A DNA stretch of 64,000 bases, taken from NCBI RefSeq assembly GCF_009914755.1, contig NC_060941.1; one strand, 5' to 3'. Both the position numbers and the translations under genes were made by a program. The notes beneath the pieces are model-generated. The model was not told the DNA's origin, ran no database searches, and saw nothing but the letters and a program-made list of their open reading frames with translations. This DNA is from the human T2T-CHM13v2.0 reference genome, Homo sapiens. Positions 34,676 to 38,507 of this stretch are shown here, in pieces. The first letter of the stretch is position 1. Each line of letters starts with the position of its first letter.

Positions 34676-35235
34676 TTTTTTTTTTTTTTCCTTTTACAAC
34701 AGATTCATTTTATTTTCATCACCATGGGACGTATCCTGTTGTTGAGTTCTCTGGGTCAGACCTCTGAAGACTTCTCAGATGGATCCTAGTCTCTGGGCTT
34801 GCCCTGAAATTACTCGCTGCTCAGGGAGAGAGTTGAAATGGTTGGCATCCTCCCACTCTGTTGCTCCGGCTGTGTCCCCTCGCTCTGTTGTTCCAGCTAT
34901 GTGCCCTCTGTTGCTCCAACTGCAGCTCATTCTGTTAGAGTTCCTCATTCAGCTGGTCACTGTGGCCAGAGGGTGTTGGCCTGCTCCCTTCCTCAAGTAT
35001 TCTTAAAGCCATGGATTTTTGTGGAGCATTTTTCTTCCTGGCTCTCCCTTGAGTTATTTTCCTTTCTTCGCTATCTTGGGACTCTTCTTTGTGCTTGCGG
35101 TCATCGGTTGAGAGAAGGACTTCTTCTTCCTTGTCTCCTTGGTGTTGGCTCGTGGTTGCTCTTCAACAACTGGACTGGAGGCTCTTGGTTTTCTCTTCAT
35201 CTTCAACAAGTCAGTCTCTCTCAAGGGTCTCACGT
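34676..35235 (-). pseudogene. Processed VCX/VCY-like retrocopy
   Basis: - strand ATG at 35200: MKRKPRASSPVVEEQPRANTKETRKKKSFSQPMTASTKKSPKIAKKGK, frameshift, GRARKKNAPQKSMALRILEEGSRPTPSGHSDQLNEEL*QNEL...SEGTQ. Colinear with recalled VCX/VCY. AATAAA at 34709-34714, then poly(A) at 34676-34689. No intron. Confidence 0.75.
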
Positions 35236-35830
35236 TGCAGCATTCTTACCAGAGGCCATTGGGCCTGGAGTTCCAGTTCCAGTGTCTGGAGAGTCCACCT
35301 CAGCTCAGCAATCTCATGCCGGTTGGCAATTGTCAGCAGAAGCCGATGCCTGCCCATCAGTTCTTTACTCTGAGGTGTTAGAGTGGAATAAAAATATAAA
35401 TACTTATACTAGTTTTCATGACTTCTGCTTAATATTGGGTATTTTTTTGTTTTGTTTTGTTTTGGCGGTGATAGGCTTACCTTACATTAAACCAGGCCTT
35501 AGCCTTTCTGTGGCTTTGTTATGGCAAAGCCTCATATTACTCTCTAGTCTGGTTCAGCAGGACAGTCAGGTCCACACCTGGGGCTGTTTGTTTTCTACGT
35601 TTACCTCAACATAAGGTACCTTATCATTGTCAGCCTTCATCTCCTGATCCAAAATAAAATAAAATGCCACAGGTTACTTGATTTTGCATCTGGAATATGA
35701 TTATTTAAAGAAATTAAAAATTTAAAACTGAAAATGTAGAGTTTAGAAATCTTTTTTAAGGTTTCAAAAAAATTTCTAGGAGACAACAAAATAGTGTTAC
35801 TAGATTTAGCAAATAAAATACAGAATGCCA
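34703..35830 (+). ncRNA. KRT10-AS1: KRT10-AS1 (TMEM99) last exon; 3' end uncertain
   Basis: Strong acceptor T14-CCTTTTACAACAG|ATTC at 34702. Contains the TMEM99 ORF. AATAAA at ~35653 and ~35812. Confidence 0.7.
34838..35614 (+). CDS. TMEM99: TMEM99 ORF (258 aa, doubtful protein; locus now regarded as lncRNA KRT10-AS1)
   Basis: Single-exon ORF matching the recalled TMEM99 sequence (MVGILPLCCSGCVPSLCCSS...). It lies entirely antisense to pseudogene sequence, so coding status is questionable. Confidence 0.6.
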   Translation: MVGILPLCCSGCVPSLCCSSYVPSVAPTAAHSVRVPHSAGHCGQRVLACSLPQVFLKPWIFVEHFSSWLSLELFSFLRYLGTLLCACGHRLREGLLLPCLLGVGSWLLFNNWTGGSWFSLHLQQVSLSQGSHVAAFLPEAIGPGVPVPVSGESTSAQQSHAGWQLSAEADACPSVLYSEVLEWNKNINTYTSFHDFCLILGIFLFCFVLAVIGLPYIKPGLSLSVALLWQSLILLSSLVQQDSQVHTWGCLFSTFTST

Positions 35831-35978
35831 ATTAAATTTGAATTTCAAATGAACATTGAATACTTTTTTTGGTATAACTATATTCCATGCAATATTTGGG
35901 ACATATCTGTTATATTATTCATTGTTTACCTGAAATTATAATTTAAACTGAGAGTTCTGTATTTTATCTGGCAACCTT
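35793..35978. mobile_element. MER53-like palindromic hAT MITE
   Basis: aaaatacagaatgccaattaaatttgaatttcaaatgaac pairs with gtttacctgaaattataatttaaactgagagttctgtattttatctggcaacc. Central ccatgcaatatttgggacata. Confidence 0.8.
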
Positions 35979-36457
35979 ATTATGAAAATATTTAGGATCA
36001 ATATAAAGGAATAATATTTTTAATTTTTACAAACTATTTTAATATAAGTAATTTATTTGATTTTCATTGTCATCCTGAGAGTTAAGTTTTGCCTTACAGT
36101 CTATGTTACTTTACCTGTGTTTTATGAAAAGACTGTCTCTTATAATGATAGCCACCACCACCATATCTTGACAAGTATTGACATACTGAAACTTTAAATT
36201 CATTTTGTGTAGTTCCCGCCTCTTCATGATTGTTTCTGAGGTAATTCAGCTTCTCCGTCTGGCTTTCCATTTTCAACTCTAGGTTAGTCTTGTTCAAAGT
36301 CAACTCATCTAAGACACTTCGCAGGCCCTTGCTATCAGCCTCAACACAGTGATAAAGGACAACTTTACTCTGGCATCTGAACAGAGCCCAATTGGAAGAA
36401 TCAATACAGCTTAGATGGAGGTCTCCTCATCCAGTGGTAATAAAACATCCCACATAG

Positions 36458-36925
<468 letters not shown>

Positions 36926-37607
36926 TGAGTTAATGTGCAAAAGTGCTTAGCACAGCATCAGTATTTAGTAAATGGTAGGAATAACATTATTAAAGCCATG
37001 AAAGAGTGAAAATCTCCCCTCTGCTCTTTTGACTAGGAAAGGAAGCAAGCTCCTTTTCACGTACAGTGCAATGCACCTTTGTTTTACAAGGACTGTGTCT
37101 CCCTAGTTAAAAAAAAATTAAAGTACAGTATGGGGGACCTCCTGCAGTTCTATAAAAACCAAGTCTCTGACCTACGGATTGGAGAGTCATACACCATACA
37201 TGAGATTTCAAATCGCTAGCCTGGGAATTTTCACATTGCTAACCTATGACCACTATTGTAATTTAAACATAAAAGAGATTGTTTTATGTTGAGATGTTTA
37301 ATAATGTGAAATAATGATATTGTAAATTTTGTAGTAACTGTTTAAAGTGGTGAATTGGGGAGGTTTTTTTTTTTTTTTTTTTTTTCAGTTCTTTACATGG
37401 TTTCTGACTTACTTGAGCTTGAAGTCATCCACAGTGAGCCTGGCATTGTGGATCTAATGCGGAATGTTGGCATTTTCCAAAGTAACATTCGTTACCTTCA
37501 AGGGAGGAAAAGGAACCATATAATTTAACAAAATATGTTGGGTGCCATTAGGTCCAGATTATATACTTCATGGATTTCAATAATTATAAGTTTGTCAGTC
37601 ATATTTG

Positions 37608-37886
37608 TGCTAGTCATGGCGGCTCATGCTTGTAGTCCCAGCACTTTGAGAAGCTGAGGCTGGAGGATCACCTGAGTCCAGGAGTTCAAGATCAGCTTGA
37701 ACAACATAGTGAGACCCCATCTCTACAGAAAAAAATTTAGCTGGGAATGGTGGCACATGTCTGTAGTCCCTACTTGGGAGGCTGACATGGGAGGATTGCT
37801 CAAGCCTGGGAGGGTGAGGCTGCTATGATCGTGCCACTACACACACACCAGCCAGGGCAACAGAGCAAGACCCTGTCTCAAAAAAG
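37608..37886 (+). mobile_element. Alu (J-like) in pseudogene intron 1
   Basis: Diverged Alu. TSD agt(c/t)atatttgt. Confidence 0.9.
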
Positions 37887-38507
37887 TTATATTTGTATAA
37901 ATATATATCAGATAAACAGTAAATTTAAATTTTTCTCGGACTATTACAGAACTTTTCAGCTAAATATATTTTTTAGAGCTTCTGAAATACAGGATAAATG
38001 TTTCTCTTTCAAATGAATGAGCCATTTCATATTAATTTTTATGCACGTTAGACACTTTTCTCGACATTAGATGCATTAATTAATCAGATACAATATATGT
38101 TTGCCAGGAGAAATGTAAGTTGTCAAGGTAGTAGGCCTGGCATTTGTTTAAATTCTGTGTGGTTTTTGTCTCATTACTTGAAAGAAGGCCACCACCATCA
38201 GAGTCACCAGAATTTCACAGGCCCCTATTTAGTCCAGCACTCATGCTACTCCACCCTGTGCCAGGACCCAACCTACCCTCAACACCATAAAAGCCACCAG
38301 AAGGCCCACTACCACGGCCCTCTGCTCTCTTGAGAGCCCCCTACAATGACATAGGTTCCCCTGAGCCTCAACAGACTCAGAGCCACTTTCAGTGCTGCTG
38401 TGCTGCCACAACCCAGAGGAACAAGCCACTGTGTGGAGGTGTAGCAGAGATCTAAGGTTAAAGTATAGCCCCAAAGTCGGTGCATTATGGGGACCATTAT
38501 GGAGCCT

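What the first reader, a model, noticed from the sequence alone, without database searches (positions are those of the whole stretch)
34676..35235. Autosomal processed retrocopy of a VCX/VCY-family (testis X/Y) gene inside the keratin cluster
Seen: - strand GAAGATG at 35200, a basic N-terminus (MKRKPRAS...TKETRKKKSFSQP...KKSPKIAKKGK), a frameshift near 35056, then GRARKKNAPQKSMALRILEEGSRPTPSGHSDQLNEEL*QNEL, later SEGTQ, then AATAAAATGAATCTGTTG and poly(A). Against VCX as I recall it (MSPKPRAS...KRKSSSQP...TKVAKKGK...[42 protein letters not shown]...SEGTQ), the middle block aligns without gaps at 19/42 identities. The 5' and 3' UTR words also resemble recalled VCX mRNA. It starts ~15 nt after the pseudogene's exon-5 donor. 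Inference: a molecular fossil of an ancestral VCX/Y member. VCX/Y is usually described as primate-restricted and fast-evolving, so the copy could date and root the family.
Basis: partly seen in the sequence, partly recalled or inferred. Interest (0 to 1): 0.82.

Follow-up and report, generated by a model that had tools for sequence, protein, structure and literature searches.

The report
Old VCX-family retrocopy in keratin cluster
This is a dead, intron-less copy of an ancient X-linked testis gene, from a lineage near the split between today's VCX/VCY and CSAG genes, that landed inside a keratin pseudogene at least before apes and Old World monkeys split; its tail, read backwards, now supplies the splice site of a non-coding RNA.

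Summary
In detail: every quoted reading, the AATAAA, the 14-nt poly(A) (34676-34689) and the neighbouring keratin exon are there. The interpretation largely holds. The element (about 34690-35233, minus strand) is a processed pseudogene of the VCX/VCY-CSAG superfamily. It reads straight across the position where all 17 X/Y genomic relatives examined carry a 156-213-nt intron. It begins within 4 nt of the annotated VCY gene's 5' end, downstream of a TATA box that it lacks, and its poly(A) starts within 1 nt of VCY's annotated 3' end. No target-site duplication was found. It is not a copy of modern VCX/VCY. In the tree it stands alone between a VCX/VCY+chr8-retrocopy clade and a CSAG+Xq28+chr12-retrocopy clade (both bootstrap 100), sharing 20 diagnostic sites with the first clade and 17 with the second. 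Protein models from Old World monkeys that run antisense through it show it predates the ape/monkey split. Its branch length (0.106) suggests an origin on the simian stem or in early primates. Its poly(A), read antisense, is the polypyrimidine tract of the KRT10-AS1 terminal exon. The VCX-CSAG-SPANX kinship was already published (Hansen 2008, seen only via a citing paper). This is an ordinary kind of element from an interesting family.

The parts
34690..35233 (-). Body of the processed pseudogene (5' end between 35233 and 35229; last templated base 34690)
   Evidence: Colinear homology to the chr8 and chr12 retrocopies, 8 Xq28 copies, CSAG1-3, VCX x4 and VCY x2. The ends coincide with the annotated VCY gene ends.
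34676..34689 (-). Poly(A) tail, 14 A
   Evidence: T run on the + strand at 34676-34689. It begins where all genomic relatives diverge into non-A sequence and within 1 nt of VCY's annotated 3' end.
34709..34714 (-). AATAAA polyadenylation signal, shared with most relatives
   Evidence: AATAAAATGAAT conserved in chr8, VCX, VCY; one mismatch in the MAGEA4-AS1 copy.
35198..35200 (-). Remnant start codon of the VCX-type ORF (MKRKPRASSP...)
   Evidence: It aligns with the ATG of VCX, VCY, CSAG and the Xq28 copies.
35083..35084 (-). Exon-exon junction: the parent's intron is missing here (...AAAGAAG|AGTCCC...)
   Evidence: In VCX the exon ends ...AAGAAG|GTGAGT and the next exon starts CCTTCCAG|ACTACC, giving an intron at L023:1545-1736 of 192 nt. 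There is an insert of 156-213 nt in 17 of 17 X/Y copies and 0 nt in chr17, chr8 and chr12.
35054..35056 (-). First disabling lesion: in-frame TAA, followed at once by a 4-nt deletion private to chr17
   Evidence: chr17 reads GGAAAATAA----CTCAAGGG, where chr8, VCX, VCY, the MAGEA4-AS1 copy and chr12 have 4 more bases and no stop.
34935..34937 (-). Second in-frame TAA (relatives have CCT, CAT or AAT)
34856..34908 (-). Tandem repeat, 27 nt x 2.0 (84% matches), at the position of the VCX repeat array; contains the SEGTQ codons
   Evidence: TRF. Searches show the block present in chr17, chr8 and VCX and absent in chr12, CSAG1-3 and the 8 Xq28 copies.
34676..34702 (+). Splice acceptor of the KRT10-AS1 terminal exon: T14-CCTTTTACAACAG, i.e. 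the retrocopy's poly(A) tail and 3' end read antisense
   Evidence: sequence; RefSeq exon start 34703 (given annotation).
34703..36595 (+). KRT10-AS1 terminal exon; its first ~530 nt are antisense to the retrocopy and the rest is antisense to keratin-pseudogene exons 3-5
   Evidence: RefSeq NR_160886-8; keratin remnants.
34838..35614 (+). 258-aa antisense ORF; codons 1-134 are the reverse reading of the retrocopy
   Evidence: Catarrhine protein models cover it. No Pfam family.
35235..35321 (-). Exon-5 remnant of the host type I keratin pseudogene; the retrocopy sits in its intron 5, in the same orientation
   Evidence: tblastn with KRT10: 48% over aa 362-390; donor GTAAGA at 35249-35244.

Best explanation
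A spliced, polyadenylated mRNA from an X-linked, TATA-driven, two-exon gene of the VCX/VCY-CSAG superfamily was reverse-transcribed and inserted into intron 5 of a type I keratin (pseudo)gene, presumably by LINE-1 machinery in the germ line. It inserted as a full-length copy without promoter or intron, and it then decayed through two stop codons, a 4-nt deletion and frame changes in the repeat block. The source gene lay near the split between the lineage leading to VCX/VCY and the lineage leading to CSAG and the Xq28 relics, so the copy preserves a slowly evolving snapshot of that stage. The insertion is older than the ape/Old World monkey split and probably dates to the simian stem or early primates. 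Later its antisense strand was co-opted: the poly(A) tail became the polypyrimidine tract and acceptor of the terminal exon of KRT10-AS1, and its reverse reading supplies the first 134 codons of a young primate-only ORF. The homology, intron loss, end coincidence, poly(A), lesions, tree position, presence in catarrhines and acceptor are shown. LINE-1 mediation, germ-line expression of the parent and the absolute age are inferred.
For: Homology: chr8 E 5.4e-52 and 1.8e-41, chr12 5.1e-30, eight Xq28 loci; CSAG1-3 72-76% over four colinear blocks and VCX/VCY patches at 68-85%; reciprocal search from chr8 gives chr17 at 6.3e-52 and VCX3A at 2.1e-47. Pfam: the two pieces hit only VCX_VCY, at profile positions 1-42 and 50-86. 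Intron loss is at the exact VCX splice junction. Seven of 9 X/Y copies examined share CCAAT and TATA boxes, and all 3 autosomal copies lose homology about 25-30 nt after the TATA. The VCY annotated ends coincide with the element's ends. AATAAA plus A14. Flanks of chr17, chr8 and chr12 share only a dispersed repeat, so the insertions are independent. Tree: both clades have UFboot 100 with chr17 outside them, and chr17 shares 20 diagnostic sites with clade A, 17 with clade B and 3 with neither. Protein models from macaque, Rhinopithecus, gelada, gibbon and gorilla align over the part antisense to the element. Acceptor.
Against: No target-site duplication above chance: best 7 nt, 22% of shuffles reach it, and the abutting 25 nt give nothing. 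Each Pfam piece is below the 27-bit cut-off (19.2 and 14.8 bits). The genome-wide profile scan did not pick up the chr17 locus at E<=1, and the genome-wide DNA search did not list VCX/VCY; that link rests on the small-database blastn and on the chr8 intermediate. The tree rests on 462 columns of purine-rich, indel-prone sequence, is unrooted, and could be distorted by gene conversion among X copies. The absolute age uses recalled neutral rates. No genome of another species could be inspected.
Confidence: 0.88

Rival explanations
1. It is a retrocopy of a CSAG-type (Xq28) gene, not of the VCX/VCY lineage.
For: By raw similarity the Xq28 copies and CSAG1-3 match better than VCX/VCY: K2P 0.30-0.36 against 0.42-0.43, and there are longer blastn blocks. 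The chr12 retrocopy shows that this lineage did spawn retrocopies.
Against: The CSAG/Xq28/chr12 clade excludes chr17 with UFboot 100. chr17 keeps the repeat block that all 12 members of that clade lack, and it lacks the CSAG1-3 4-nt gap. Diagnostic sites split 20 to 17. The low similarity to VCX is explained by the long VCX/Y stem of 0.24.
Confidence: 0.1
2. It is a retrocopy of a crown-group VCX or VCY gene, as the title read literally would imply, that merely diverged a great deal.
For: Pfam sees only VCX_VCY. It shares the repeat block and the ORF frame with VCX.
Against: chr8 groups with VCX/Y at UFboot 100 to the exclusion of chr17. chr17 shares 17 diagnostic sites with the other clade.
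Confidence: 0.04
3. It is a chance resemblance or a DNA-level duplicate of an intronless segment.
For: No TSD was found. The sequence is purine-rich and low in complexity.
Against: E-values reach 1e-52. It is colinear over about 540 nt, including both UTRs. The poly(A) sits at the conserved cleavage site. The promoter is absent. There is no flank homology.
Confidence: 0.01

Closest known systems
VCX/VCY genes (Pfam PF15231 VCX_VCY; Xp22.3 and Yq11)
   Same: Same ATG context, the same basic N-terminus in the same frame, the same exon junction, the same SDQ..QEL/NEEL..Q.EL block, a SEGTQ-containing tandem repeat at the same place, and the same AATAAAATGAAT 3' end. The transcript ends match the two-exon VCY gene. 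PMC3055243 (passages) states that VCY has two exons.
   Different: It is autosomal, intronless, promoterless and broken. It lies outside the VCX/VCY+chr8 clade, with K2P 0.42-0.43. It has 27-nt x 2 repeats instead of long arrays. GC is 0.47 and CpG count 6, against 0.62 and 23-27.
CSAG1-3 and eight unannotated or lncRNA-annotated CSAG/VCX-like relics beside MAGEA genes at Xq28
   Same: Colinear nucleotide homology at 72-78% over both exons and the 3' UTR, with the same intron position.
   Different: They keep the intron and most keep the promoter. They lack the repeat block. CSAG1-3 read a different frame after a 4-nt gap (no Pfam hit). chr17 is excluded from their clade.
chr8:94354392-94355061 retrocopy (inside lncRNA LOC105375643)
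   Same: It is the nearest relative of chr17 genome-wide, and this holds reciprocally. It is also intronless and starts at the same nucleotide region.
   Different: It is sister to VCX/VCY, so younger and from that lineage. It keeps a 113-aa open VCX_VCY frame at 90.5 bits, and a gelada protein model is 90% identical. It has no clean poly(A).
Exonisation through antisense poly(A) tails, best known for antisense Alu elements (recalled general knowledge, no call)
   Same: A retroposed poly(A) read antisense gives a T-rich polypyrimidine tract in front of an AG that is used as a 3' splice site.
   Different: The donor of the tract is a processed pseudogene rather than an Alu, and the exon is a terminal lncRNA exon.

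Membership tests
Processed pseudogene (retrocopy of a spliced mRNA) | Colinear homology to the whole mRNA of a multi-exon gene located elsewhere | tested here: met
   homology runs from within 4 nt of VCY's annotated 5' end to within 1 nt of its 3' end.
Processed pseudogene (retrocopy of a spliced mRNA) | Precise absence of the parent's intron | tested here: met
   0 nt in chr17, against 156-213 nt in 17 of 17 X/Y copies; junction at 35084|35083.
Processed pseudogene (retrocopy of a spliced mRNA) | Poly(A) tail at the parent's cleavage site after AATAAA | tested here: met
   A14 at 34689-34676, 19 nt after AATAAA.
Processed pseudogene (retrocopy of a spliced mRNA) | Absence of the parent's promoter | tested here: met
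   CCAAT and TATA boxes are present in 7 of 9 X/Y copies examined. Upstream of chr17 lies keratin exon 5 instead.
Processed pseudogene (retrocopy of a spliced mRNA) | Flanking target-site duplication | tested here: inconclusive
   no match above chance (best 7 nt, not abutting, 22% of shuffles; abutting 25 nt 91%). The test cannot see short or decayed duplications; one of 10 nt or more should probably still be visible, so this hallmark is missing.
Processed pseudogene (retrocopy of a spliced mRNA) | Disabling mutations | tested here: met
   two TAA codons, a private 4-nt deletion and a frame change in the repeat block.
VCX/VCY family (Pfam PF15231) | Profile match above the curated cut-off (27 bits) | tested here: inconclusive
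   the pieces score 19.2 bits (profile 1-42) and 14.8 bits (profile 50-86). This is the only family hit and the pieces are colinear, but each is below the cut-off, and the pieces could not be scored jointly across the stop. The genome-wide scan missed the locus.
VCX/VCY family (Pfam PF15231) | Branches within the clade of VCX and VCY genes | tested here: not met
   chr8+VCX/VCY form a clade (UFboot 100) that excludes chr17. I therefore file it as a stem relative in the superfamily, not as a crown VCX/VCY copy.
VCX/VCY family (Pfam PF15231) | Tandem repeat in the last exon after the SEGTQ motif | tested here: met
   27 nt x 2.0 at the homologous position. VCX has longer arrays.
VCX/VCY family (Pfam PF15231) | Testis-specific expression of the parent gene | not testable with these tools
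   No expression data are available. PMC3055243 (passage) states male germ-cell expression for VCX/VCY.
CSAG family | Branches within the CSAG/Xq28 clade | tested here: not met
   that clade has UFboot 100 and excludes chr17.
CSAG family | CSAG-specific 4-nt gap that shifts the frame after MSRKPRASSP | tested here: not met
   the gap is present in CSAG1-3 only, and chr17 has the full-length sequence there.

The most novel reading that the evidence does not exclude
The chr17 element was retroposed from the common ancestor of VCX/VCY and CSAG, or from an extinct sister lineage, before the two lineages became distinct. It has the shortest path to the central node of the tree, which makes it the best surviving proxy for that ancestor. 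On this reading the ancestor was a TATA-driven two-exon gene encoding a basic protein of roughly 110-130 aa in the VCX frame, already carrying the SEGTQ-type 27-30-nt repeat. The CSAG proteins would then be a later frameshift invention and the loss of the repeat a derived Xq28 trait. The same fossil then seeded, on its opposite strand, a splice acceptor and half of a de novo primate ORF. One retroposition event would thus have produced both a record of the old gene and raw material for a new transcript.
Probability: 0.35. Interest if true: 0.55.

Novelty: new member of a known kind. Interest (0 to 1): 0.4.

Why it matters
VCX/VCY, CSAG and SPANX are fast-evolving cancer/testis gene families under positive selection (PMC13616518, passages). 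Their orthology is described as unclear (PMC8327908, passages). Living copies are blurred by selection and gene conversion. Autosomal retrocopies escape both and evolve neutrally, so the three fossils found here (chr17 deepest, chr8 on the VCX/Y stem, chr12 in the CSAG-like clade) give dated, intermediate sequences. These link the families at the transcript level, show which features are ancestral (frame, repeat, two-exon structure, transcription start) and can calibrate the order of events once other primate genomes are compared. The element also explains where the acceptor and the 5' half of the KRT10-AS1 terminal exon come from, and it shows that the primate-only antisense ORF in that exon is a reverse reading of two pseudogenes.

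Tried and rejected
TSD search: a local alignment of 45-nt and 25-nt flanks found nothing above shuffles.

SPANX as outgroup: SPANXB1 and SPANXN1 gave no hit to the element at E<=0.01. They share only the promoter with the X-linked copies, over 62-75 nt at 73-79%, with E down to 2.9e-11 in a two-locus database. The retrocopy lacks the promoter, so the tree stays unrooted.

Protein word search for family members in other species: the chr8 ORF returned 1 protein among 3 scored candidates, with 25 unnamed-source candidates left out. This says little about taxonomic range. I did not use the third search.

Dating through non-catarrhine species: one search returned 5 proteins, all catarrhine, among 61 scored candidates, with 737 left out. 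The absence of others is uninformative.

Literature: searches found no held paper that describes an autosomal VCX-type retrocopy. Hansen et al. 2008 is not held and may mention such copies; I saw only its description and reference entry in PMC8327908. No paper holds both 'KRT10-AS1' and 'TMEM99', so that alias, and the identity of the 258-aa ORF with the TMEM99 protein of PMC5898914, are recalled and not shown by a call. Supplements were not seen; those of PMC5898914 and PMC8327908 could bear on the age of the ORF and on family orthology. Papers seen as passages only: PMC13616518, PMC3055243, PMC5898914, PMC8327908, PMC12412623, PMC13102300 and bioRxiv 10.64898/2026.05.18.725836.

Rejected readings: a known interspersed repeat (not masked) and a functional coding gene (stops in all frames).

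Full report
OBSERVATION. An ATG at 35200-35198, preceded by GAAG, opens MKRKPRASSPVVEEQPRANTKETRKKKSFSQPMTASTKKSPKIAKKGK and stops at TAA 35056-35054. A second frame continues GRARKKNAPQKSMALRILEEGSRPTPSGHSDQLNEEL, then TAA (34937-34935), then QNEL. A third frame holds SEGTQ. AATAAA lies at 34714-34709, followed by ATGAATCTGTTG, and the tail is 14 A at 34689-34676. The stretch is not repeat-masked. A type I keratin pseudogene lies on the same strand, with KRT10-like exon 1-5 remnants from 38193 to 35235. Its exon-5 donor (35250|35249) is 16-20 nt upstream of the element. I took the VCX reading frame from the genome, not from memory. With it the middle block has 19 of 42 identities without gaps by my hand count, and BLASTP gives 16/37, E 2e-4. 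The N-terminal block is weaker, at 11/27 and E 0.11.

RELATIVES. A whole-genome DNA search (23 matches from 11 scored candidates) did not list VCX or VCY. The best relatives were an intronless copy on chr8 (73-79% identity, E 5.4e-52 and 1.8e-41), one on chr12 (E 5.1e-30) and eight loci scattered among the MAGEA genes at Xq28. RefSeq annotates two of these as lncRNAs (MAGEA4-AS1, LOC105377213) and the others not at all. I then ran blastn against 18 fetched loci. CSAG1-3 match in four colinear blocks at 72-76%. VCX and VCY match in colinear patches: q92-137 at 80-85%, q243-327 at 68% for VCX, q409-449, and q484-548 at 79-83%. The best is VCY at 67 bits. By my arithmetic, not a tool result, 67 bits would still give about 2e-8 against the whole genome. 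SPANXB1 and SPANXN1 gave nothing. The reciprocal search from the chr8 copy ranks chr17 first (6.3e-52), then VCX3A, VCX3B and VCX (2.1e-47 to 3.3e-46), then VCX2 and VCY. It found no further autosomal locus; closed regions are not shown, so these counts are lower bounds.

At protein level, both chr17 ORF pieces hit only Pfam VCX_VCY, in colinear order (19.2 bits at profile 1-42; 14.8 bits at profile 50-86). Each is below the 27-bit cut-off. The chr8 ORF scores 90.5 bits. A genome-wide profile scan found VCX x4, VCY x2, chr8 (94 bits) and the MAGEA4-AS1 copy (24.7 bits), but not chr17.

PROCESSED ORIGIN. In VCX the coding exon ends ...AAGAAG|GTGAGT and the next begins CCTTCCAG|ACTACC. The intron is L023:1545-1736, 192 nt. 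A 20-sequence MAFFT alignment shows an insert of 156-213 nt at this point in 17 of 17 X/Y genomic copies and none in chr17, chr8 and chr12. In chr17 the junction is 35084|35083. Upstream, 7 of the 9 X/Y copies examined (VCX, VCY and five Xq28 copies, but not CSAG1 or CSAG3) share a CCAAT box and a TATA-like box. All three autosomal copies lose homology about 25-30 nt downstream of that TATA. The RefSeq VCY gene (702 nt) aligns from its nt 5 at window 35229, and its last base corresponds to 34689, the first A of the tail. PMC3055243 (passage) describes VCY as a two-exon gene. The element is therefore a full-length copy of a two-exon transcript of this type, with its tail at the conserved cleavage site. 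The flanks of the three autosomal copies share only a dispersed repeat, so they are independent insertions. One hallmark is missing: no target-site duplication exceeds chance.

PLACE IN THE FAMILY. The ML tree used 462 columns, leaving out the 5' 11 nt, the repeat block and the tail, with model TN+F+R2 and 1000 ultrafast bootstraps. It has three lineages meeting at one node. The first is chr17 alone, with a branch of 0.107. The second is chr8 plus VCX x4 and VCY x2, with support 100 and stem 0.114. The third is chr12 plus CSAG1-3 and the eight Xq28 copies, with support 100 and stem 0.157. At sites where the two clades differ, chr17 agrees with the first clade at 20 sites, with the second at 17, and with neither at 3. 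chr17 shares the tandem-repeat block with chr8 and VCX, whereas all 12 members of the other clade lack it. TRF finds 27 nt x 2.0 at 34856-34908. The apparent closeness to CSAG in BLAST reflects the very long VCX/VCY stem of 0.24 (K2P values). The tree is unrooted. chr17 may be sister to either clade or basal to both. What is robust is that it is nested in neither.

CSAG FRAME. The CSAG1-3 coding frame differs from the VCX frame after a 4-nt gap private to those three genes, and their ORF has no Pfam hit. The CSAG3 frame corresponds to the third frame of chr17.

LESIONS. Relative to the open-frame relatives, chr17 has TAA at 35056-35054 with a private 4-nt deletion directly after it, TAA at 34937-34935, and a shortened, frame-shifted repeat block.

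AGE. The plus-strand 258-aa ORF (34838-35614) runs antisense through the element for its first 134 codons. UniRef protein models from gorilla, gibbon, pig-tailed macaque, snub-nosed monkey and gelada align over that part. The element was therefore present before apes and Old World monkeys split. The chr17 terminal branch is 0.106 substitutions per site, with a bootstrap 95% interval of 0.061-0.147. This is an upper bound for neutral decay since insertion. Recalled approximate human-lineage neutral distances, which come from no call, are about 0.03 since the Old World monkey split, about 0.055 since the New World monkey split and about 0.11 since the tarsier split. Against these, the branch points to the simian stem or early primates. 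The chr8 copy has a terminal branch of 0.064 (0.029-0.110) and a gelada orthologue, so it is younger. I could not inspect any non-human genome, so the empty site was not found.

PRESENT ROLE. The terminal exon of KRT10-AS1 starts at 34703 (given annotation). The plus strand there reads T14-CCTTTTACAACAG|A. The polypyrimidine tract is the retrocopy's poly(A) tail read antisense, and the AG comes from its 3' UTR. The first ~530 nt of that exon are antisense retrocopy, and the rest is antisense to keratin-pseudogene exons 3-5. I recall that this gene was formerly called TMEM99, but no call confirms this (one search found no paper with both names). PMC5898914 (passages) describes TMEM99 as a primate-only ORF, intact in human and orangutan and disrupted in chimpanzee, bonobo and gorilla. 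If the alias holds, that ORF is a reverse reading of two pseudogenes. It has no Pfam family.

WHAT IS KNOWN. PMC8327908 (passages) reports that Hansen et al. [quoted passage not shown] I could not read that paper. I reproduced the promoter similarity to SPANX. PMC13616518 (passages) treats VCX and CSAG as separate ampliconic families under positive selection. PMC3055243 (passage) mentions four VCX sequences in a New World monkey. My searches found no held paper that describes autosomal retrocopies of this family, and RefSeq annotates none at chr17, chr8 or chr12 (given annotation).

VERDICT. The element is an old, full-length processed pseudogene from the stem of the VCX/VCY-CSAG superfamily. 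It is not a copy of modern VCX/VCY. It can bracket but not yet root the family's history, and it has been co-opted antisense as the acceptor and 5' half of a lncRNA exon. It is an ordinary kind of element and a new, unannotated member of that kind. Interest is moderate for people working on cancer/testis gene evolution and on de novo transcripts.

Noticed in passing
window 35235-38193 (-): Type I keratin pseudogene with KRT10-like exon 1-5 remnants (48-59% aa identity) between KRT10 and KRT12. It is absent from the RefSeq list given, and no exon 6-8 remnant was found downstream of the retrocopy at E<0.1.
   Followed up: partly
window 34676-34703 (+) and 34838-35614 (+): The KRT10-AS1 terminal-exon acceptor is the retrocopy's poly(A) read antisense. 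A 258-aa ORF in that exon is antisense to the retrocopy (codons 1-134) and to keratin-pseudogene exons 5 and 4. Catarrhine protein models exist for it, and it has no Pfam family.
   Followed up: partly
L002:1520-1858 (chr8:94354392-94355061, inside lncRNA LOC105375643): An intronless VCX-type retrocopy that keeps a 113-aa open frame scoring 90.5 bits on Pfam VCX_VCY, followed by SEGTQPDPL-type tandem repeats. A gelada UniRef protein (118 aa) is 90% identical. It is sister to VCX/VCY in the tree.
   Followed up: partly
L044:1441-1972 (-) (chrX about 150.1728-150.1734 Mb, under lncRNA MAGEA4-AS1): Both VCX-like exons are open (63-aa and 102-aa ORFs, the second at 26 bits on VCX_VCY, just under the cut-off), with CCAAT and TATA boxes upstream. 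This may be an unannotated small coding gene.
   Followed up: partly
chrX 147.94-151.50 Mb (loci L005-L008, L010, L012-L014): Eight CSAG/VCX-like intron-containing relics lie beside MAGEA genes (MAGEA11, MAGEA4, MAGEA10/A5P, MAGEA6-DT, MAGEA1 neighbourhoods). Two of them were identical over the tree columns and lie on opposite strands about 60 kb apart (147.937 and 147.998 Mb). This suggests the MAGEA duplication unit carried such a gene.
   Followed up: partly
L029:5925-6242 (CSAG3) versus the alignment, q76-79: CSAG1-3 share a private 4-nt gap after MSRKPRASSP, so their annotated proteins read a different frame from VCX. The VCX-like frame is still visible in their last exon.
   Followed up: partly
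L023:1347-2195 (VCX): The 192-nt VCX intron is a multiple of three and open, so an unspliced transcript would still give a 282-aa read-through ORF.
   Followed up: no
L004:1501-1960 (chr12:273368-273824, between SLC6A13 and KDM5A): A third processed copy, belonging to the CSAG/Xq28 clade, with an internal A-run expansion and no clean poly(A).
   Followed up: partly
L027:463-537 and L030:350-424: The SPANXB1 and SPANXN1 regions at their annotated gene starts share 62-75 nt at 73-79% identity with the CCAAT/TATA promoter of the VCX and Xq28 copies. This reproduces the shared promoter attributed to Hansen 2008 in PMC8327908.
   Followed up: yes
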